In this document: positions 32,692 through 63,360 of the stretch, in pieces
Layout: every line of letters starts with the position of its first letter
Position numbering within the stretch: position 1 is the stretch's first letter
NCBI GenBank assembly: GCA_023229825.1
Contig: JALNYN010000002.1
Span: 17,789-81,788 of the forward strand
Reading direction: 5' to 3'
DNA length: 64,000 bases
Source of the DNA: Minisyncoccota bacterium
Lineage (GTDB): Bacteria > Patescibacteriota > Minisyncoccia > Phycocordibacterales > CAIJYI01
Made by a program: the position numbers and the translations under genes
The notes under the pieces: generated by a model
What the model saw: only the letters and a program-made list of their open reading frames with translations
Told to the model about the DNA's origin: nothing
Database searches by the model: none

Positions 32692-33195
32692 TCATTCATT
32701 CACATTATCTGTTTTCAACTCGCATTTTTCGTTTGCCGACGACCAATACCAAAAGGATGAATCCGAAACATAGTTTTTTCGAACAGGATTTTCTAAAATA
32801 TAATTCAATTTTTGCTGAAAAAATTTTTCGCTTTGAAGAATGATAGGCATATTGGTATCTTGCCAAATGGAATAGGTTTCGTCGGTTTCAACGAATAATT
32901 TTTCAATATTCGGTTCAGTTGCAACTATATTTTTATGTATTTCGCGGGATGTATGCCTTTTAAAATCCCTGACAAATCCGGAGGTATCGCAAGATTCTGT
33001 AATAAGATGAATATGGTTAAGCATAAATACAAAACCGTATAGTTTGAGACCCTTCTTCTTTTGGCAAAAACGGAGAGATTCTGCAATAATATTCCAGCGA
33101 TTATGCCGGTCAAAAAGGTAATACCATTTCTTAATGGTAAAAGTGAGAAAGTATGTGGAAGAATTTAATTCTTTTGATATTTTTTTGATCGGCAT
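32692..33195 (-). CDS. IS200/IS605-family HUH tyrosine transposase, REP-associated (RAYT-like)
   Basis: 167 aa; HUH motif FVFMLNHIHLIT; C-terminal IWQDTNMPIILQSEKFFQQKLNYILENPVRKNYV carries the catalytic Tyr and NP. Flanked by identical REP palindromes in inverted orientation (32637-32675 and 33231-33270). Confidence 0.85.
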   Translation of the reverse strand: MPIKKISKELNSSTYFLTFTIKKWYYLFDRHNRWNIIAESLRFCQKKKGLKLYGFVFMLNHIHLITESCDTSGFVRDFKRHTSREIHKNIVATEPNIEKLFVETDETYSIWQDTNMPIILQSEKFFQQKLNYILENPVRKNYVSDSSFWYWSSANEKCELKTDNVNE

Positions 33196-33334: not shown

Positions 33335-36300
33335 TTAAATATACACCACCCTTCCTCTCGTTTCACCTTTCCTTTCCTCTATTTCCACCAGCTCCTCCGG
33401 TATATCATTCAAAAATTCCGATGGTACTGTCATGTTTCTTGAGCCAAAAACGGTTCGTACTGAGGCGTAGGTTAAAAACAGTCTTTGTTTTGCTCGCGTG
33501 ATGGCGACATAAAAAAGCCGCCTCTCTTCTTCTTTGTGGTTCTGTGAATCGCCAGATTCTCCGAAACTTCGATGCGGGAAAAGTCCGTCTTCGAGTCCGG
33601 TAATGAAAACCGTTTCAAATTCCAATCCTTTTGACGCGTGCACGGTCATGAGACGGACGCGCGGTGTATCGATCTTTCCGTGCATGAGCGAATCTTGATC
33701 GCTTGCCAGAGCGGCATCTTCGAGGAGTTTCTGTATTCCCTCTTCCGGCGGATAGGCATCGTATTTTGAAGCCAGAGAAACTAATTCGTAGAGGTTCTCT
33801 ATCCTTTCTTGCTCCTCTTCTCCTCCGAGCGATAACCCCTTTTCCATCCCCGTTTCTTTGAGAATATATTTTACCGTATCGCTCGGTTTTTTTTCGGCGG
33901 CGATAACCCGTATTTTTTCAAGAAGCGCGAAAAAGTCAGAAACTTTTGTTTTTGCCGCCGCTGGGAGCATATCTCTTTGTCCGGCAAGGATCTTTTTCAG
34001 GGTGACTTCCCCGAGGCCTCTTGCTGGAACGTTTATGATGCGTTTCAGATCGAAAGCGCTTTCGGGATTGAATGCGGCGCGAAGATACGCAAGAACATCT
34101 TTCACCTCTTTTCTCTCAAAGAATTTTGTCCCGAGTACCTGATACGGAATGTCGGCGGACAGCATTGCCTCTTCGAGAGCGCGAGATTGATAATTGGCGC
34201 GAAAGAGCACGGCTATATTTTGGTAAGAAACTCCTTTTCTCACAAGTTCTCGCACTTTTTCGGCCACGAAAGAAGCCTCGTCATTTTCGTCGTACGCTTC
34301 ATAAAGCGATATTTGTTCTCCTCCCGGAATTTTGGTAAAGAGATTTTTTGGCACCCTCAGCTTATTTTTTTGAATGACGCTATTTGCCGCCGAAAGGATA
34401 TTCTGTGTGGAGCGGTAATTTTCTTCAAGAAGAACGATCTTCGATCCGGGGTAATCTTTTTCAAAATGAATAATGTTTCTAATGTTAGCGCCTCGCCACG
34501 AATACACGCAATTATGTACCGGTATGGAGTTAACAATATAGTTATGAGTTTTGGCAATATCAAGGTCATAGACCAATCCTTCATATTTTACCCGCTCTAT
34601 CTTTTGAATTTCATCAGTAATTATTTTTCCATTTTGAATGAGCGCAGTTTCCATTTTTTCCCGAAGGCTTGCCGCCGGAAAAAAATTAAATCTCCCTTTT
34701 TCCGTAAGGAGTGCGGTACGATTCAGGATAAGTTTGGGATTGATCGCAAGTATTTTTTGCGCGATATTTTCAGCTTCGCCATAATCCAACTTTGCGATTT
34801 CCAACCGCCAGTCGTCCCTTTTTCCTTTTCTTGTTTTAAAACCCGCCAATTCGAGTTTCTCTTTCAGTTTTTTGTCGGTTGTGTTGATGGAAACGCGGCT
34901 TAACCCGAATGGGTGCAAAACGCTTTTTCTTTTGTCACTGAACATGGTGAGTCGGACGTTGAGTCGATTGTTTTCCGTGTTCCCTTGCGTTGTTCCTTGC
35001 GGGGTGTAGTGTGGAAAATCAAATGAAAGTCCTGTTTCTTCAAAAAGTCGTTTCGCGTTTTTTTCCGTATCTATCATTCCAAATAAATCGTCAATCTGCT
35101 TTTGAGCAAGGGAGAGTTTTCTGCCGATCGTATGGAACACTATCGTTGGAATTCCGTAGAAAAAAGAATAATAGTTTTCCCATAAAATCGCCTCCGGTTT
35201 TGTTTCGCATACTCTTATTACCCACATCCGATCCGCTTTTTCTTGATTGCTTCGCACCAAAAAACCGACCTTTACATCCCCGTTCCCGTTTCCCGGGACT
35301 CGTGCGCTTTTTACCATGCCAACCCGAAATCCTTTCGTTCTTTTGTACATGAGATACACATAATATACGTTGTGTTGAAGTGAAAAACGGGAAAAGAAAA
35401 TATGCTCGGGCGTCGTTTTTATTATTCTCCCGCTTTTTGTTGTGATTTTTATCATATCCCCGTCATATTTTTTCTCTATGACTCGCGTAACTTTTGAGAG
35501 GCAAACATCTCCGTTTCCGGCGGCGCTTTTTACTTCGTCGCCCGTCTTGATATCTTCTATTTTTTTCTCGCCATTTTTGACGGATACTCGCGTATTTTTC
35601 GGAAAACACTGGTCCCCATCGCCGACGACGCAGATGTTTCGGTCTTTTCCGGCGAGCAGTCTTGAAAGTTCGTATTGAACGGTATTCGTGTCTTGATATT
35701 CATCAATGTGCACATAGCGCCACATTTCTTGGTATTTTTCACGGATAGCCTCGTTTTCGCGCAGGAGAAGCAGAGTTTTTAGGAGAAGATCATCAAAATC
35801 GAAAGCCGATGCTTTTTTTGTTCTTTTTTCGTAATCAAGCCACACTTCGGCGACGATGCGCGGGAAAAAAGCGGTGTTGGAATTCGCGTAAAAGGTCTCT
35901 GCTGAAACACACTCTCCTTTTTGCCGCGAAATAATACTTTGTATCTTTTTCGGATCGAATTGCTTCGGATCGAGATTCCTTGCTTTTATGGCATCTTTGA
36001 TAAGCGAACGAGAATCGTTTTGATCTAAGATCGTAAAGTGCTTCGGAAGGCCGAGCGCTTCGTTCTCTTTTCGAAGGATATATACTCCAAGCGAATGAAA
36101 GGTCCCGATAAACGGTTCGTTGCCGTATCCGATGATATTTTCTTTTTGAAGGAGCGTGTTTATCCTTCCCCTCATCTCTTGCGCAGCTTTATTGGTGAAT
36201 GTTACGGCGAGTATTTGATGCGCGGGAACACCGCTTTGTATGAGCTGAATGATCCTGTGCGTCAAAGTTTTTGTTTTTCCGGCCCCCGCTCCGGCAACGA

Positions 36301-36373
36301 TCAAAAGAGGGCCGTTTTTGTGAAGAACGGCCTCTTTTTGCGGTTCATTTAATCCTTCTGTGTAGTCATGCAT
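33335..36373 (-). CDS. ATP-dependent DNA helicase UvrD/PcrA family, interrupted by an in-frame intein
   Basis: Motif I AGAGAGKTKTL, motif II DEYQDT, motif III region VVGDGDQ|CFPKN...(366 aa)...IPVHN|CVYSWRGANI, motif IV/V and a C-terminal UvrD_C region. Total 1012 aa versus the typical ~650-750. Confidence 0.9.
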   Translation of the reverse strand: MHDYTEGLNEPQKEAVLHKNGPLLIVAGAGAGKTKTLTHRIIQLIQSGVPAHQILAVTFTNKAAQEMRGRINTLLQKENIIGYGNEPFIGTFHSLGVYILRKENEALGLPKHFTILDQNDSRSLIKDAIKARNLDPKQFDPKKIQSIISRQKGECVSAETFYANSNTAFFPRIVAEVWLDYEKRTKKASAFDFDDLLLKTLLLLRENEAIREKYQEMWRYVHIDEYQDTNTVQYELSRLLAGKDRNICVVGDGDQCFPKNTRVSVKNGEKKIEDIKTGDEVKSAAGNGDVCLSKVTRVIEKKYDGDMIKITTKSGRIIKTTPEHIFFSRFSLQHNVYYVYLMYKRTKGFRVGMVKSARVPGNGNGDVKVGFLVRSNQEKADRMWVIRVCETKPEAILWENYYSFFYGIPTIVFHTIGRKLSLAQKQIDDLFGMIDTEKNAKRLFEETGLSFDFPHYTPQGTTQGNTENNRLNVRLTMFSDKRKSVLHPFGLSRVSINTTDKKLKEKLELAGFKTRKGKRDDWRLEIAKLDYGEAENIAQKILAINPKLILNRTALLTEKGRFNFFPAASLREKMETALIQNGKIITDEIQKIERVKYEGLVYDLDIAKTHNYIVNSIPVHNCVYSWRGANIRNIIHFEKDYPGSKIVLLEENYRSTQNILSAANSVIQKNKLRVPKNLFTKIPGGEQISLYEAYDENDEASFVAEKVRELVRKGVSYQNIAVLFRANYQSRALEEAMLSADIPYQVLGTKFFERKEVKDVLAYLRAAFNPESAFDLKRIINVPARGLGEVTLKKILAGQRDMLPAAAKTKVSDFFALLEKIRVIAAEKKPSDTVKYILKETGMEKGLSLGGEEEQERIENLYELVSLASKYDAYPPEEGIQKLLEDAALASDQDSLMHGKIDTPRVRLMTVHASKGLEFETVFITGLEDGLFPHRSFGESGDSQNHKEEERRLFYVAITRAKQRLFLTYASVRTVFGSRNMTVPSEFLNDIPEELVEIEERKGETRGRVVYI
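34511..35608 (-). mobile_element. Intein (366 aa) inserted in helicase motif III of the UvrD/PcrA gene
   Basis: N-terminal Cys (codon 35606-35608), block B TPEH, C-terminal VHN followed by +1 Cys (codon 34508-34510). Interior long enough for an endonuclease domain (KLELAGFKTRKGKRDD is LAGLIDADG-like but degenerate). Confidence 0.8.
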
Positions 36374-36475: not shown

Positions 36476-37948
36476 TTAATCGGTAATCTTTAATCGGCCA
36501 CCGCCCGTTGGCGGGGTCCCGCTCGCGAGCGGGATAATCCTTTTTAGCGCACTGATGAGATACTTATTTCCCCTGAATATCTTATCAAGGGTGAGAATAT
36601 CTTTGGGGAGAATATGGACCTGGCCTTTCTTCATCCCAAGTTCTTCGGGGTGATCGCCGGAAAGAGCGTTGAAGGCATCGTTCATGCTGTCGAGTATAAA
36701 GTTTTTCTGTCTGGGATCGAGAGTTTGGAATTTCTGAATATCCTCAAGCTTTGTTTCCAGGATCTTCCTGATAACGTCGCCTTCTTTTACGGTATAGGGT
36801 TCGCTAAGTTTTTGAAGCGATTCTTCCGGGGTTACGGGCTTATGATCCAAAGGTGATTCTTTTGTTTGCGTTTCTGGTCTTTCCGTTTGAGCGGCAGGTA
36901 TCTTATCTTGAACATCTGATGGTTTGGGTTCGTTTGGCGCGATAACTTCCTCGTTATTGTTCGTTCGCGGAGAAAGCCGTTGTTTTAACCATGCGAACGG
37001 AAAGCCGAGAAATACTTTTGGCGATCCATCAGGTGTTTTATCGGGGGTCTTTGATTCCGGTTTTTCATCCATGCTCGATATTTTAGCCGTCTCTTTCTGT
37101 ATTTCTTGAGTAACGCGGTCTATTTTTTCCTTCACTTCCTCTATTTTTTGCGCATCAATTTTCGCTGCCTGAATATCGGAGGGTTTTTCTTTTGTTTCGC
37201 CGTCAGCGCTCTCTTTTTCGGCGGCTTTTACCGCCTCCGTATTTGTCTCTATTTTTTCCACAACTTTATCATCACCGATCTTCTTGTCCAGTTCAGAAAG
37301 CTCCGCCTGTAACCGCTTGAGTTTATCGGACGGTGCACTATGCATTTTTTCATTAAGCTTTTTTTCTTCAAAGATCGCCACGCGCAGATACACCCGCTGT
37401 TTTCTCCAATCTTTCAAGAGTTCAGGGTCAGGGAGATCGATATTTGAGATCTTTTTATCATCAACTTTTGTTTGATCCGGTTCTTCGTTCGGAGTTTTGT
37501 CTCGAAGATCTTTCAGTTTTTGGATCAAATTCTGCGCCGTATCGTTCGGGTCAATATCATGATCCTTTACGATCTTTGTAAGCGTGTTGGACCTGAGGGG
37601 AGGGATCCTATCATTATCTATATCGGTAAGAAGATGGTGTGCTTCATCCGTGATACCCGTTTCTGCCGATTTTTCGGGTTCTTTCCGGTAAAACTTCTTG
37701 AGTTCGCCCAGTATTTGCTCGATCGCCGCTAAGACGGCTTCATCTGTGTCGAGAGCGACTGCTTCTTCAACGGATCTTGTCGTTTTCTCTATCTGCTCTT
37801 TTGCTGAAAAATTATCGAAAAGAATATTTTCGATCTCTCCCATTTTTTTATTGATCGCGGACTCAAACTCTTCCGGTGTTTTCATTCCGAGATCTTTTTC
37901 CGTCGCGGATGTTTTATTGTCGGTCACTGGTTGTTGTTGGGTATCCAT
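36476..37948 (-). CDS. Acidic coiled-coil hypothetical protein whose last ~19 codons are encoded by a GC-rich palindromic element
   Basis: 490 aa, E/K-rich. C-terminus ...IPLASGTPPTGGGRLKITD is translated from repeat 36496-36540 (ggccaccgcccgttggcggggtcccgctcgcgagcgggataatcc). Confidence 0.5.
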   Translation of the reverse strand: MDTQQQPVTDNKTSATEKDLGMKTPEEFESAINKKMGEIENILFDNFSAKEQIEKTTRSVEEAVALDTDEAVLAAIEQILGELKKFYRKEPEKSAETGITDEAHHLLTDIDNDRIPPLRSNTLTKIVKDHDIDPNDTAQNLIQKLKDLRDKTPNEEPDQTKVDDKKISNIDLPDPELLKDWRKQRVYLRVAIFEEKKLNEKMHSAPSDKLKRLQAELSELDKKIGDDKVVEKIETNTEAVKAAEKESADGETKEKPSDIQAAKIDAQKIEEVKEKIDRVTQEIQKETAKISSMDEKPESKTPDKTPDGSPKVFLGFPFAWLKQRLSPRTNNNEEVIAPNEPKPSDVQDKIPAAQTERPETQTKESPLDHKPVTPEESLQKLSEPYTVKEGDVIRKILETKLEDIQKFQTLDPRQKNFILDSMNDAFNALSGDHPEELGMKKGQVHILPKDILTLDKIFRGNKYLISALKRIIPLASGTPPTGGGRLKITD

Positions 37949-59356: not shown

Positions 59357-59428
59357 GTCCTCGTAGTGAAACGGATATCACGCAACGCTTCGAACGTTGT
59401 ATTCCAGGTTCGAGTCCTGGCGAGGGCA
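59357..59428 (+). tRNA. tRNA-Arg (anticodon UCG)
   Basis: Manual fold: acceptor gtcctcg/cgagggc (one G-U), D-stem gtga/tcac, anticodon stem caacg/cgttg with loop cTTCGaa, T-arm ccagg-ttcgagt-cctgg, discriminator A; no encoded CCA. Confidence 0.7.
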
Positions 59429-59580
59429 CAGTAGCGAAGCGGATGTGGCCTCGAGCAAGTGACCTGCGTCACTTGCGCCCAGGACTCGAAAGGGTTTTCG
59501 TTATTTGTGAGGATCGTAATCCGAACAAATCGGAAACCACCCGCGACGGTAGTCGAGAGTCCTGGCGAGGGCACTATTTG

Positions 59581-60829: not shown

Positions 60830-60900
60830 GCGGGTATAGTTTAGTGGTAGAATATGACATTGCCAATGTTAAGGCGCGGTTTCGATTACCGCTACCCGCA
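60830..60900 (+). tRNA. tRNA-Gly (anticodon GCC)
   Basis: Manual fold: acceptor gcgggta/tacccgc, anticodon stem tgaca/tgtta with loop tTGCCaa, T-arm gcggt-ttcgatt-accgc, discriminator A. Terminator 60908-60934 follows. Confidence 0.75.
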
Positions 60901-60983
60901 CAGTGAGAAAAAACCGCTATATAGCGGTTTTTTTGTTACGCGGGAAACTTTATTTCAGAGATCGTTTCGTGTATACTATAACT

Positions 60984-62914: not shown

Positions 62915-63360
62915 CGGTAGTATCCTGCTTCGCCAGAGGCTACGCAGGACGCGGCGTCTGCTTTGGGGTCGAATGTATAATTGTTTCTTTAAGCTCTTCT
63001 ATAAAATAATAACTACAGTGTCGGGGCGTAGTATACCGGTAGTACGTCTGCTTTGGGGTTCGTTTTTATTGTCGGGGTGTAGTATACCGGTAGTACGTCT
63101 GCTTTGGGAGCAGATAGACCGAGTTCGATTCTCGGCACCCCGACAATAAAAAAGAACCGGAAACATCCTAAATGTTTCCGCGGCCCGAAGGGAGATAGAC
63201 CGAGTTCGATTCTCGGCGCCCCGACACTGTAGTTATTTTTAGATCAGAGGAGCTTAAAGAAACAATTATATATTTGACCGGAAGTGTCTAAACACTTCCG
63301 TGGCCCGAAGGGAGATAGACCGAGTTCTCCGCCAGCTGGCGGATCGGGGCCCCGACAATC
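62915..63360 (+). repeat. Cluster of tRNA-Pro-derived fragments and short hairpins surrounding the intact tRNA-Pro
   Basis: 5'-half copy 63020-63058 (gtcggggcgtagtataccggtagtacgtctgctttgggg). 3'-part copies 63186-63226 and 63303-63356 (…gggagatagaccgagttc…ccccgaca), each preceded by a ccggaa…ttccgg hairpin. Further fragment 62917-62970. ctacagtg/cactgtag at 63013 and 63228. Confidence 0.8.
63073..63143 (+). tRNA. tRNA-Pro (anticodon UGG)
   Basis: Manual fold: acceptor cggggtg/caccccg, D-stem gtat/gtac, anticodon stem tctgc/gcaga with loop tTTGGGa, T-arm ccgag-ttcgatt-ctcgg, discriminator A. Confidence 0.7.

What the first reader, a model, noticed from the sequence alone, without database searches (positions are those of the whole stretch)
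33335..36373. Intein in motif III of the UvrD/PcrA helicase
The helicase reads …ICVVGDGDQ then a 366-aa insertion starting with Cys (CFPKNTRV…) that contains a TPEH block-B signature and ends …IPVHN. It is immediately followed by Cys and the continuation of helicase motif III (CVYSWRGANIRN). Coordinates 34511-35608. The interior is long enough for a homing endonuclease. Inteins are sparse in small symbiont genomes, so an intein in an essential repair helicase is worth recording.
Basis: partly seen in the sequence, partly recalled or inferred. Interest (0 to 1): 0.55.

Follow-up and report, generated by a model that had tools for sequence, protein, structure and literature searches.

The report
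Intein inside PcrA helicase motif III
The PcrA/UvrD-type repair helicase gene of this Paceibacterota (candidate phyla radiation) bacterium is split in its ATP-coupling motif III by a genuine 366-residue self-splicing intein. The intein family is widespread and partly annotated already, but its nested domain is neither LAGLIDADG nor HNH: it is an unannotated, probably GIY-YIG-like homing endonuclease.

Summary
ORF 33335-36373 (-) encodes a 1012-aa PcrA-like helicase with a 366-aa insertion (34511-35608), Cys1...TPEH...HN|Cys+1.

- **It is an intein.** Intein HMMs pass their curated cut-offs. The spliced exteins align without a gap to PcrA 1pjr, placing the insertion between Q254 and S255 of motif III.
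- **It is not rare.** A profile of the interior finds 1567 cluster representatives, almost all UvrD/PcrA proteins with the same insertion site. It is found in at least 140 species genomes, many of them Patescibacteria, and in phi92-like phages, where GenBank already annotates it as an intein.
The interior has no Pfam, NCBIfam or PHROG match. AlphaFold (pLDDT 93) gives a beta-beta-alpha-beta-alpha core plus a second alpha/beta domain.
- **The core looks GIY-YIG-like, below threshold.** It aligns in register with GIY-YIG nucleases (hhalign P=2.7e-4; Pfam E=0.023).
- **The family is mobile.** The core is the best-conserved part of the intein. In the phage relatives the intein is present or precisely absent among ~99% identical helicase genes, and substitutions cluster at the insertion site, which is a homing signature.

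Verdict: a real intein, a new member of a known family. The mildly novel part is its uncharacterised nested nuclease.

The parts
33335..36373 (-). Precursor ORF, 1012 aa: PcrA/UvrD-family SF1A helicase interrupted by an intein. It is identical to NCBI MCK9351325.1 / MFA6493461.1, named 'UvrD-helicase domain-containing protein [Candidatus Paceibacterota bacterium]', which is not annotated as intein-containing.
35609..36373 (-). N-extein, aa 1-255: helicase motifs Q, I, Ia and II and the first half of motif III, ending ...VVGDGDQ. The final Gln aligns with PcrA Q254.
   Evidence: Pfam UvrD-helicase matches aa 8-256 at E=6e-80. Gap-free alignment to 1pjr.
34511..35608 (-). Intein, 366 aa (precursor aa 256-621). 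Class 1 residues: Cys1, Thr66/His69 (block B), Asp348 (block F), His365-Asn366 (block G).
35381..35608 (-). N-terminal half of the Hint splicing domain (intein residues 1-76, blocks A and B).
   Evidence: TIGR01445 matches aa 256-327. AF2 pLDDT is 88-98. Foldseek matches intein structures.
34997..35380 (-). Nested subdomain 1 (intein residues 77-204). It has a beta-beta-alpha-beta-alpha core (residues 82-151) plus two helices. Residues Y85, M87, R95, G97, R119, E123, D126, W129, E144, P154 and H200 are conserved in 94-100% of 93 inteins. It is the putative GIY-YIG-like catalytic domain.
34697..34996 (-). Nested subdomain 2 (intein residues 205-304): a beta-beta-alpha-beta-alpha-beta domain rich in Arg/Lys and the least conserved part of the intein. 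Inferred to be the DNA-recognition domain.
   Evidence: No sequence match to any family or PDB chain.
34511..34696 (-). C-terminal half of the Hint splicing domain (intein residues 305-366, blocks F and G, ending VHN).
   Evidence: TIGR01443 matches aa 601-622. PDB intein matches. AF2.
33335..34510 (-). C-extein, aa 622-1012 plus the stop codon. It starts with Cys+1 (CVYSWRGA, the second half of motif III) and continues through motifs IV-VI.
   Evidence: Pfam UvrD_C matches aa 648-971 at E=3.5e-76. Alignment to 1pjr.

Best explanation
The gene encodes a PcrA-like SF1A helicase precursor that carries a canonical class 1 intein between the Gln and the Ser/Cys of motif III (GDxDQ|[S/C]IYxWRGA).

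**Splicing (inferred from the standard intein mechanism).** After translation the Hint domain splices itself out in four steps: an N-S acyl shift at Cys1; trans-thioesterification to Cys+1; cyclisation of Asn366 assisted by His365; and an S-N shift. This rejoins GDGDQ-CVYSWRGA and restores the ATP-coupling motif. The unspliced precursor should be inactive as a helicase.

**Homing (inferred).** The 230-residue nested module is a bipartite homing endonuclease. Its N-terminal part is a strongly conserved catalytic core, most likely a divergent GIY-YIG-type nuclease with a YVYLM...[Y/F]RIG...EAxxxE signature. Its C-terminal part is a fast-evolving basic domain that reads the target DNA. The enzyme would cut intein-less pcrA/uvrD alleles at the motif III coding sequence. 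Recombinational repair from the intein-containing allele then copies the intein, together with short flanking extein tracts, into the cut gene.

**Shown here:** the insertion, its boundaries, the intein signatures, the Hint fold, family-wide conservation of the nested domain, and a presence/absence polymorphism with site-centred substitutions in phage relatives.

**Inferred:** splicing activity, nuclease activity, the GIY-YIG assignment, and current mobility of this particular copy.

**My probabilities:** intein 0.97; nested domain is or was a homing endonuclease 0.75; it belongs to the GIY-YIG superfamily 0.6.
For: **Intein**
- HMMs score above their curated cut-offs.
- PDB intein sequence matches at both ends.
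- The AF2 model (pLDDT 93.4, pTM 0.90) has a Hint part that matches TliVMA, PhoVMA and PI-SceI at E 4e-8 to 1e-6.
- The spliced extein aligns without a gap to PcrA at E=1e-159. It matches TIGR01073 pcrA as a single stretch of 719 bits.
- All splicing residues are present: C1, T66, H69, D348, H365, N366, C+1.

**Family**
- A profile of the interior finds 1567 representatives at E<=1e-3.
- 92 complete inteins of 341-380 aa sit at the same GDxxQ|C...HN|[S/C] site.
- The domain is in at least 140 species genomes across Patescibacteria, Chloroflexota, Clostridia, Elusimicrobia, Planctomycetota and others.
- It is in 54 phage genomes, some annotated 'intein-containing UvrD / Rep family helicase precursor'.

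**Nested domain is functional**
- The window copy keeps all 22 interior residues that are conserved in at least 85% of inteins.
- The core is more conserved than the Hint domain: 43.6% against 35.8% mean pairwise identity. Subdomain 2 is at 23.9%.
- The same module sits in inteins at motifs II and V of giant UvrD-like proteins, and probably in a phage protein named as a DNA methyltransferase (TM 0.61 on the query, extein not examined).

**Mobility**
- 38 phi92-like phages carry the intein, while sibling phages lack it precisely.
- Their exteins are ~99% identical, except that 25 of 41 mismatches lie within -27..+50 nt of the insertion site. Eleven of the differing codons are synonymous.

**GIY-YIG**
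- The predicted b-b-a-b-a order matches the fold.
- The family consensus hits Pfam PF01541 over profile positions 1-68 of 78, at E=0.023.
- GIY-YIG is the only Pfam family hit by more than one member.
- The core HMM scores TmUvrC, BsUvrC, YhbQ, EcUvrC and Slx1 at 3.8-7.0 bits. Among 3140 background ORFs the best non-family scores are 9.1 and 5.7 bits.
- hhalign gives P=2.7e-4 over 67-72 columns, pairing Y85 with Y19, G97 with G31 and E144 with E76 of T. maritima UvrC. Controls gave P>=0.024.
Against: **No experiment.** Splicing and cleavage are both inferred.

**The GIY-YIG assignment is below every curated threshold.**
- The Pfam score is 15.4 bits against a cut-off of 22.6, and only for the family consensus. 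The window sequence itself gives no hit.
- hhalign probability is only 41.8%.
- Against a deeper UvrC-only profile the result drops to P=0.0074, no better than the best of 30 shuffled templates at 0.0089.
- The second motif Tyr is replaced by Arg95, the canonical Asn is not found, and the position of the catalytic Arg (R103 or R119) is ambiguous.

**Mobility of this copy is not shown.**
- The homing evidence comes from phage relatives only 29% identical to the window copy. No intein-less allele from a close Paceibacterota relative was examined.
- Within Patescibacteria, intein identity tracks extein identity. That is compatible with long vertical inheritance rather than recent homing.
Confidence: 0.8

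Rival explanations
1. The intein is real, but the nested module is not a nuclease. It would be a DNA-binding or regulatory domain retained because it benefits the host. One possibility is that it makes splicing of the repair helicase conditional on DNA or DNA damage, as proposed for some RadA and DnaB inteins. The intein would then be inherited mostly vertically.
For: - No nuclease family passes a curated threshold.
- Intein and extein divergence are similar within Patescibacteria: 53% against 61%, 51% against 54%, 50% against 53%.
- The intein is nearly as conserved as the helicase itself.
- Cys1 and Cys+1 could in principle form a redox switch (inference).
Against: - The phage relatives show precise presence/absence among ~99% identical genes. 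A cluster of largely synonymous changes is centred on the insertion site. That points to DNA-level homing, not regulation.
- The same module has spread to other sites and other exteins.
- The invariant Tyr/Arg/Glu/Asp/His set in the core looks catalytic.
- Distribution across phyla is sporadic: 140 of 185,579 species genomes, a lower bound.
Confidence: 0.15
2. The nested module is a homing endonuclease, but of a fold or catalytic class other than GIY-YIG. It would be a new nuclease family, or a very divergent PD-(D/E)xK or other alpha/beta nuclease, and the GIY-YIG resemblance would be a coincidence of short motifs.
For: - All GIY-YIG scores are sub-threshold.
- The UvrC-only profile gives P=0.0074, which is matched by shuffled controls.
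- The YIG Tyr is replaced by Arg, and the Asn is missing.
- Additional invariant residues (E123, D126, H200) have no GIY-YIG counterpart.
Against: - Three independent methods place the motifs in the same register over the whole ~70-residue core.
- The predicted secondary-structure order is that of GIY-YIG.
- From my own knowledge, untested here: Lys/Arg at the second-Tyr position occurs in accepted GIY-YIG members such as Hpy188I and T5orf172-type domains.
Confidence: 0.25
3. The 366-aa segment is a lineage-specific helicase subdomain or accessory insertion, not an intein.
For: UvrD-family helicases do tolerate insertions in the 1B and 2B domains (general knowledge).
Against: - Intein HMMs score above their cut-offs at both ends.
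- The Hint fold is predicted and matches solved inteins.
- PcrA, UvrD and Rep structures lack the segment and align without a gap across the junction inside motif III.
- In phages the segment is precisely absent from ~99% identical genes.
Confidence: 0.01
4. The intein is a decaying relic. It is splicing-competent, but its endonuclease is inactive and on the way to becoming a mini-intein.
For: The homing cycle model predicts endonuclease decay after fixation. No intein-less allele was seen in close relatives of the window genome.
Against: - The window copy keeps every one of the 22 conserved interior residues.
- Intein length is uniform across the family at 341-380 aa, with no mini-intein forms among the 92 complete copies.
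- The nested core is more conserved than the splicing domain.
Confidence: 0.1

Closest known systems
Intein of the UvrD/Rep family helicase of phi92-like coliphages (Justusliebigvirus / Phapecoctavirus), e.g. MZ501084.1 bas62_0080, annotated 'intein-containing UvrD / Rep family helicase precursor'
   Same: - Same insertion site in motif III: GDEFQ|C...SHN|CIYQFRGS.
- Same architecture and same nested domain: tblastn E~5e-14 over 100% of the interior. The BFVD model A0A140G655 superposes at TM 0.82 and rmsd 3.3 A.
- Class 1 residues are the same.
   Different: - Only 27-29% identical.
- The host is a phage helicase of 578 aa rather than a cellular PcrA.
- The phage intein is 346-347 aa against 366 aa here.
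- The phage copies show a demonstrable presence/absence polymorphism. No such evidence exists for the window lineage.
Bacterial UvrD inteins catalogued by Novikova et al. 2016 (PMC4760082): 16 inteins in COG0210 from Acidobacteria, Actinobacteria, Deinococcus-Thermus, Firmicutes and Proteobacteria
   Same: Same host protein family. Same general rule that inteins sit in ATPase motifs of replication and repair proteins.
   Different: - That survey did not cover Patescibacteria.
- Its main text does not mention GIY-YIG or HNH, so it does not appear to describe the nested domain.
- Whether its 16 inteins sit at the motif III site was not checked here; the supplement was not read.
LAGLIDADG-containing inteins (PI-SceI 1vde, TliVMA 7qss, PI-PfuI 1dq3)
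   Same: - Hint splicing fold, with Foldseek E 4e-8 to 3e-6.
- The nested domain is inserted at the same place, between blocks B and F.
- The presumed homing life cycle is the same.
   Different: - The nested domain does not superpose: TM 0.25-0.29 and rmsd 22-25 A over the whole chain.
- There is no LAGLIDADG motif and no Pfam hit.
- The topology is b-b-a-b-a, not a-b-b-a-b-b-a.
GIY-YIG nucleases (I-TevI catalytic domain, UvrC N-terminal domain, Slx1, YhbQ; Pfam PF01541)
   Same: - Order of secondary-structure elements.
- Motif register: Y85 with the GIY Tyr, G97 with the YIG Gly, and EAxxxE144 with the catalytic Glu helix.
- Bipartite layout of catalytic domain plus separate DNA-binding domain, as in GIY-YIG homing endonucleases (Dassa et al. 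2009, PMC2677866).
   Different: - Scores are below the curated thresholds.
- The second motif Tyr is Arg.
- No conserved Asn is found.
- There is a 14-residue loop between beta2 and the next helix.
- The domain is embedded in-frame in an intein, a context in which GIY-YIG enzymes were 'not known to be present' in 2009. No paper describing one was found in the held library.
Fractured genes with split inteins and free-standing GIY-YIG or Vsr-like endonuclease genes (Dassa et al. 2009)
   Same: Association of an intein with a homing endonuclease that is neither LAGLIDADG nor HNH, in DNA-metabolism genes.
   Different: In those genes the endonuclease is a separate ORF between split-intein halves. 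Here it is fused in-frame inside a contiguous intein.

Membership tests
Intein (class 1, Hint fold) | In-frame insertion that is absent from homologues, with exteins aligning contiguously across the junction | tested here: met
   The spliced extein aligns to PcrA 1pjr at E=1e-159 with no gap at GDGDQ|CVYSWRGA. It matches TIGR01073 as a single stretch.
Intein (class 1, Hint fold) | N-terminal nucleophile (Cys/Ser1) and block B TxxH | tested here: met
   Cys1 and T66-P-E-H69 are present. C1 and H69 are 100% conserved and T66 96% conserved in 93 family members.
Intein (class 1, Hint fold) | Block F Asp, block G His-Asn terminus, and a Cys/Ser/Thr at +1 | tested here: met
   D348, H365, N366 and Cys+1 are present. 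Across relatives the +1 residue is Ser in 30 and Cys in 14.
Intein (class 1, Hint fold) | Profile HMM scores above the curated cut-offs | tested here: met
   PF14890 scores 60.4 bits (cut-off 35.8) and PF01079 38.4 (29.7). TIGR01445 scores 51.1 (24.5) and TIGR01443 26.8 (15.6).
Intein (class 1, Hint fold) | Hint fold | tested here: met
   The AF2 model has pLDDT 93.4. Foldseek matches to solved inteins reach E down to 4e-8, and mini-inteins are covered at TM 0.78-0.82 normalised to the target.
Intein (class 1, Hint fold) | Autocatalytic protein splicing | not testable with these tools
   Needs expression followed by SDS-PAGE or mass spectrometry.
LAGLIDADG homing endonuclease (nested domain) | One or two LAGLIDADG helices, a Pfam LAGLIDADG_1/2/3 match, and an a-b-b-a-b-b-a fold | tested here: not met
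   No Pfam hit at E<=10 for the window copy or for 30 relatives. The predicted topology differs. LAGLIDADG inteins match only the Hint part, at TM<=0.30.
HNH homing endonuclease (nested domain) | beta-beta-alpha-metal motif with His/Asn/His, and a Pfam HNH family match | tested here: not met
   No HNH-family hit in Pfam, NCBIfam or PHROGs.
GIY-YIG nuclease superfamily (nested subdomain 1) | Profile match to PF01541 above the gathering score | tested here: not met
   The window sequence gives no hit. The family consensus scores 15.4 bits, E=0.023, against a cut-off of 22.6, but it covers profile positions 1-68 of 78. Two of 30 members hit, with best E 0.0087.
GIY-YIG nuclease superfamily (nested subdomain 1) | Profile-profile similarity over the whole catalytic core | tested here: inconclusive
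   hhalign against 7 verified GIY-YIG sequences gives probability 41.8% and P=2.7e-4 over 67-72 columns. Controls give P>=0.024. Against an 80-sequence (3 typed + 77 metagenomic) UvrC-only profile the result is P=0.0074, similar to the best shuffle at 0.0089.
GIY-YIG nuclease superfamily (nested subdomain 1) | Three-stranded sheet with b1-b2-a1-b3-a2 order | tested here: inconclusive
   The order of predicted elements fits: b82-89, b93-100, a115-122, b127-134, a137-151. No 3D superposition of the domain alone was possible.
GIY-YIG nuclease superfamily (nested subdomain 1) | Catalytic residues: Tyr (GIY), Tyr (YIG), Arg, Glu, Asn | tested here: inconclusive
   Y85 (100%) and E144 (99%) align with the GIY Tyr and the catalytic Glu. 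The YIG Tyr position is R95 (99%). The Arg could be R103 (82%) or R119 (98%). No Asn equivalent is found.
GIY-YIG nuclease superfamily (nested subdomain 1) | Metal-dependent DNA cleavage | not testable with these tools
   Needs a biochemical assay.
PcrA/UvrD/Rep SF1A helicase (host protein) | UvrD-helicase and UvrD_C domains, with motifs I-VI collinear with solved PcrA/UvrD | tested here: met
   PF00580 matches at E=6e-80 and PF13361 at E=3.5e-76. 1pjr matches at E=1e-159, UvrD1 9dci at 1e-134 and E. coli UvrD 2is1 at 4.5e-128.
PcrA/UvrD/Rep SF1A helicase (host protein) | Equivalog-level assignment to PcrA (TIGR01073 cut-off 911 bits) | tested here: not met
   The spliced extein scores 719 bits. 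PcrA is the best match, ahead of UvrD at 583-600 bits and Rep at 540 bits, but it is below the cut-off. The protein lacks about 80 C-terminal residues of the profile. It is therefore PcrA-like and not a certified equivalog.

The most novel reading that the evidence does not exclude
The nested module of this intein family is an in-frame GIY-YIG-type homing endonuclease. That would be a catalytic class not so far documented inside contiguous inteins, where only LAGLIDADG and HNH are established in-frame, and Vsr-like or EndoVII-like enzymes occur as separate or out-of-frame ORFs. The module has colonised motif III, and less often motifs II and V, of UvrD-family helicases in more than 10 bacterial phyla and in phages. 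It is absent from Pfam, NCBIfam and PHROGs as a family.
Probability: 0.4. Interest if true: 0.6.

Novelty: new member of a known kind. Interest (0 to 1): 0.38.

Why it matters
**For the genome.** The only annotation on record is 'UvrD-helicase domain-containing protein'. It should read 'intein-containing PcrA-like helicase precursor'. The mature helicase is 646 aa, not 1012 aa.

**For intein biology.** The window copy is one more member of a large, under-annotated intein allele at UvrD/PcrA motif III, shared between CPR bacteria, other phyla and phages.

**What deserves attention is the nested domain.** It is the best-conserved part of the element, has no family assignment in current libraries, and is associated with clear homing signatures in coliphages that are easy to work with. 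If it proves to be a GIY-YIG-type enzyme, two things follow:
- The catalogue of intein-encoded homing endonuclease classes would grow.
- A new compact scaffold would become available, with a target in one of the most conserved helicase motifs.

Neither point is a major surprise for specialists. Inteins in ATPase motifs of repair helicases are expected.

Tried and rejected
1. **LAGLIDADG or HNH in the interior.** No hit in Pfam, NCBIfam or PHROGs at permissive E-values. Rejected.
2. **Sequence match of the interior to any solved structure.** None, with either a single sequence or a 30-sequence profile.
4. **AF2 with a 4-sequence alignment.** The interior came out at pLDDT <50. This was superseded by the 30-sequence run.
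5. **Word-indexed protein searches.** These gave only 4-6 relatives and wrongly suggested rarity. The exhaustive profile search corrected this.
6. **An endonuclease encoded antisense or out of frame within the intein,** as in some actinophage inteins. The + strand ORFs 33977-34903, 34990-35352 and 35442-35678 have no Pfam match. Rejected.
7. **A deeper UvrC-only GIY-YIG profile.** It did not strengthen the GIY-YIG link: P=0.0074 against 0.0089 for the best shuffle.
8. **Compositional evidence for foreign origin.** The intein is at 40.9% GC, the exteins at 45.6% and the window at 42.8%. This is not distinctive.
9. **A second intein in the window.** None was found with the family Hint profile.
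10. **Literature.** No paper in the held library describes a UvrD intein's nested domain or an in-frame GIY-YIG intein.

Full report
**1. The observation.**

The minus-strand ORF 33335..36373 is intact and encodes 1012 aa. It reads ...DRNICVVGDGDQ, then a 366-residue segment CFPKNTRV...NSIPVHN, then CVYSWRGANIRN.

- Pfam places UvrD-helicase on residues 8-256 and UvrD_C on 648-971.
- Between them, Pfam finds Intein_splicing at 60.4 bits (cut-off 35.8) and Hint at 38.4 bits (cut-off 29.7).
- NCBIfam finds intein_Nterm at 51.1 bits (cut-off 24.5) and intein_Cterm at 26.8 bits (cut-off 15.6).
- Both ends match solved inteins by sequence: MJ0781, PhoCDC21-1 and Pho RadA.

**2. The insertion point.**

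With the segment removed, the 646-aa protein aligns to G. stearothermophilus PcrA (1pjr) at E=1e-159. It also aligns to M. tuberculosis UvrD1, D. radiodurans and E. coli UvrD, and Rep.

- The alignment has no gap at the junction: vgdgdqcvyswrga against VGDADQSIYRWRGA.
- By the alignment's numbering, the intein sits between PcrA Q254 and S255.
- From established knowledge of SF1 helicases, that is inside motif III, whose Gln contacts the ATP gamma-phosphate. The unspliced precursor should therefore be inactive.

The spliced protein is PcrA-like. TIGR01073 scores 719 bits as one stretch and is the best of the family, but falls below the 911-bit equivalog cut-off.

The protein is on record as MCK9351325.1 / MFA6493461.1, 'UvrD-helicase domain-containing protein [Candidatus Paceibacterota bacterium]'. 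The source is therefore a CPR bacterium, and the intein is not annotated.

**3. The family.**

The word-indexed search found only four relatives, which made the intein look rare. The exhaustive profile search with the interior alone showed otherwise.

- It finds 1567 cluster representatives at E<=1e-3, and 816 at E<=1e-10.
- Nearly all of the best 150 hits inspected are UvrD/PcrA-sized or fragments. Most of the complete ones carry the junctions GDxxQ|C... and ...HN|[S/C]IYx[W/F]RGA.
- 92 complete inteins of 341-380 aa could be excised.
- A scan of one genome per species found the domain in at least 140 species. These include many Patescibacteria (closest at 59% identity), Chloroflexota, cultured Clostridia (Geosporobacter ferrireducens, Thermobrachium celere, Clostridium bovifaecis, C. 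homopropionicum), Elusimicrobia, Planctomycetota, Poribacteria and Myxococcota.
- It also occurs in 54 phage genomes. There, GenBank records of the BASEL collection annotate 'intein-containing UvrD / Rep family helicase precursor' with an intein mat_peptide, at the same motif III site, GDEFQ|C...SHN|CIYQFRGS.
- UvrD inteins are also listed in the survey of Novikova et al. 2016 (PMC4760082).

The finding is thus a new member of a known kind of element.

**4. The nested domain.**

Neither is there.

- The interior has no Pfam or NCBIfam hit even at E<=10.
- Thirty relatives have none either.
- PHROGs gives nothing consistent.
- A 30-sequence profile finds no PDB chain.

AlphaFold with a 30-sequence alignment gives a confident model, with pLDDT 93.4 and pTM 0.90.

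- The Hint domain covers residues 1-76 and 305-366.
- Subdomain 1 has strands 82-89 and 93-100, helix 115-122, strand 127-134, and helices 137-151, 169-178 and 181-192.
- Subdomain 2 has a b-b-a-b-a-b layout over residues 216-302.
- Solved and predicted LAGLIDADG inteins match only the Hint part, at TM 0.25-0.30 and rmsd above 20 A.
- The phage UvrD intein matches throughout, at TM 0.82.

Twenty-two interior residues are conserved in at least 85% of 93 inteins, and the window copy keeps all of them. They include Y85, M87, R95, G97, R119, E123, D126, W129, E144, P154 and H200.

Mean pairwise identity varies across the intein:

| Region | Mean pairwise identity |
|---|---|
| Subdomain 1 core | 43.6% |
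| Hint domain | 35.8% |
| Subdomain 2 | 23.9% |

This is the pattern expected of a maintained catalytic core paired with a diverging DNA-recognition domain. It is the opposite of a decaying endonuclease.

**5. Is the core GIY-YIG?**

The signature YVYLM-x5-G[Y/F]RIGxT ... EAxxxE ... YGIP, together with the b-b-a-b-a order, suggested it. The tests gave the following.

- GIY-YIG (PF01541) is the only Pfam family hit by more than one of 30 members, with best E 0.0087.
- The family consensus hits PF01541 over profile positions 1-68 of 78, at E=0.023 and 15.4 bits. That is below the 22.6-bit cut-off.
- Seven reference GIY-YIG domains were used. The seventh is P0183, a database relative of I-TevI with a precomputed PF01541 hit.
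- The core HMM scores five of the seven references at 3.8-7.0 bits. The best non-family scores among 3140 background ORFs are 9.1 and 5.7 bits.
- hhalign of the 93-sequence core against the seven references gives probability 41.8% and P=2.7e-4 over 67-72 columns. It pairs Y85 with Y19, G97 with G31 and E144 with E76 of T. maritima UvrC.
- Controls were weak, as they should be. A reversed template gave P=0.55, 30 column shuffles gave P>=0.024, and subdomain 2 gave P=0.25.

Against the assignment:

- A deeper UvrC-only profile gave only P=0.0074, no better than its best shuffle.
- The second motif Tyr is Arg95.
- No Asn equivalent exists.
- The catalytic Arg could be R103 or R119.

I rate the GIY-YIG assignment at about 0.6. 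Dassa et al. 2009 stated that GIY-YIG enzymes were not known inside inteins. A 2025 survey lists in-frame HNH, antisense LAGLIDADG or Vsr-like, and out-of-frame EndoVII-like as the non-canonical intein endonucleases. I found no paper describing this domain.

**6. Evidence for homing in the family.**

A megablast search with the phage precursor gene gave two kinds of match.

- 38 phi92-like phages carry the full gene at 97-100% identity.
- Sibling phages match in two pieces at 61% coverage and 97.5-98.5% identity. Examples are EmilieFrey and outra. For 'alia', one record has the intein and another lacks it.

The intein-less allele of EmilieFrey is exactly the two exteins joined, 1737 nt.

- Of the 41 extein mismatches, 25 lie within -27..+50 nt of the insertion site.
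- Eleven of the differing codons there are synonymous and seven are not.
- The +1 residue is Cys in the intein-bearing allele and Ser in the empty one.

Synonymous changes concentrated at the site point to a DNA-level process. That could be co-conversion during homing, or selection for cleavage-resistant sites. It is indirect but good evidence that the nested domain is a working homing endonuclease in the family.

The module has also reached other sites:

- Motif II, VDE|C...HN|CQD.
- After DEAQDLNK.
- Motif V, TCH|C...HN|STKG, in giant multi-intein UvrD-like proteins.
- Probably also a phage protein named 'Adenine specific DNA methyltransferase' in BFVD (TM 0.61 on the query); I did not examine that protein itself.

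For the window lineage itself, mobility is not shown. Within Patescibacteria, intein and extein identities run in parallel (53% against 61%, 51% against 54%, 50% against 53%). Beyond that there is no rank correlation (Spearman 0.20).

**7. Other checks.**

- Antisense ORFs inside the intein have no family match.
- There is no second intein in the window.
- Base composition is unremarkable.

**8. Verdict.**

This is a canonical class 1 intein in motif III of a PcrA-like helicase. It belongs to a widespread allele family that is already annotated in phages, so it is not rare in CPR genomes. The part worth following up is the nested, probably GIY-YIG-like endonuclease, which current domain libraries do not cover.

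Noticed in passing
window 32692..33195 (-): A 167-aa ORF immediately downstream of the helicase gene matches Pfam Y1_Tnp (IS200-like / REP-associated tyrosine transposase) at 25.3 bits, cut-off 23. A second mobile-element-type gene therefore sits next to the intein-bearing gene.
   Followed up: partly
window 36476..37948 (-): A 490-aa Lys/Glu/Asp/Pro-rich ORF directly upstream of the helicase has no Pfam family on record. It is a low-complexity protein of unknown function.
   Followed up: no
proteins P0073 (2433 aa), P0096 (2536 aa), P0102 (1872 aa), P0151 (1210 aa): These UvrD-like proteins, all but P0151 very large (1872-2536 aa), carry two or three inteins. Each intein has the same nested subdomain 1. 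Besides motif III, the inteins sit in motif II (VDE|C...HN|CQD), after DEAQDLNK, and in motif V (TCH|C...HN|STKG). P0096 also has a LAGLIDADG intein.
   Followed up: partly
proteins P0146 (367 aa) and P0131 (362 aa): These are intein-sized ORFs with Hint plus the nested domain. They start with Met and have no Cys1 and no terminal His-Asn. They may be free-standing, HO-like derivatives of this intein family, or gene-calling fragments.
   Followed up: no
L083 (MZ501084.1, phage JohannJBalmer) versus L164 (MZ501063.1, phage EmilieFrey): The intein is present in one and precisely absent from the other, in helicase genes that are ~99% identical. Of 41 extein mismatches, 25 cluster within -27..+50 nt of the insertion site, mostly in synonymous codons. 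The 'alia' phage exists in both forms: OZ035770.1 has the intein and MN850632.1 lacks it.
   Followed up: yes
BFVD entry A0A8S5TZY8 (Myoviridae sp. ctCuC1): A 782-aa protein named 'Adenine specific DNA methyltransferase' superposes on the whole intein model at TM 0.61 normalised to the query. This suggests the same Hint plus nested-domain unit sits in a non-helicase extein.
   Followed up: no
window 59357..59429, 60830..60901, 63073..63144 (+): Three tRNA genes lie near the end of the window: Arg-TCG, Gly-GCC and Pro-TGG. No other Rfam family is found in the 64 kb.
   Followed up: no
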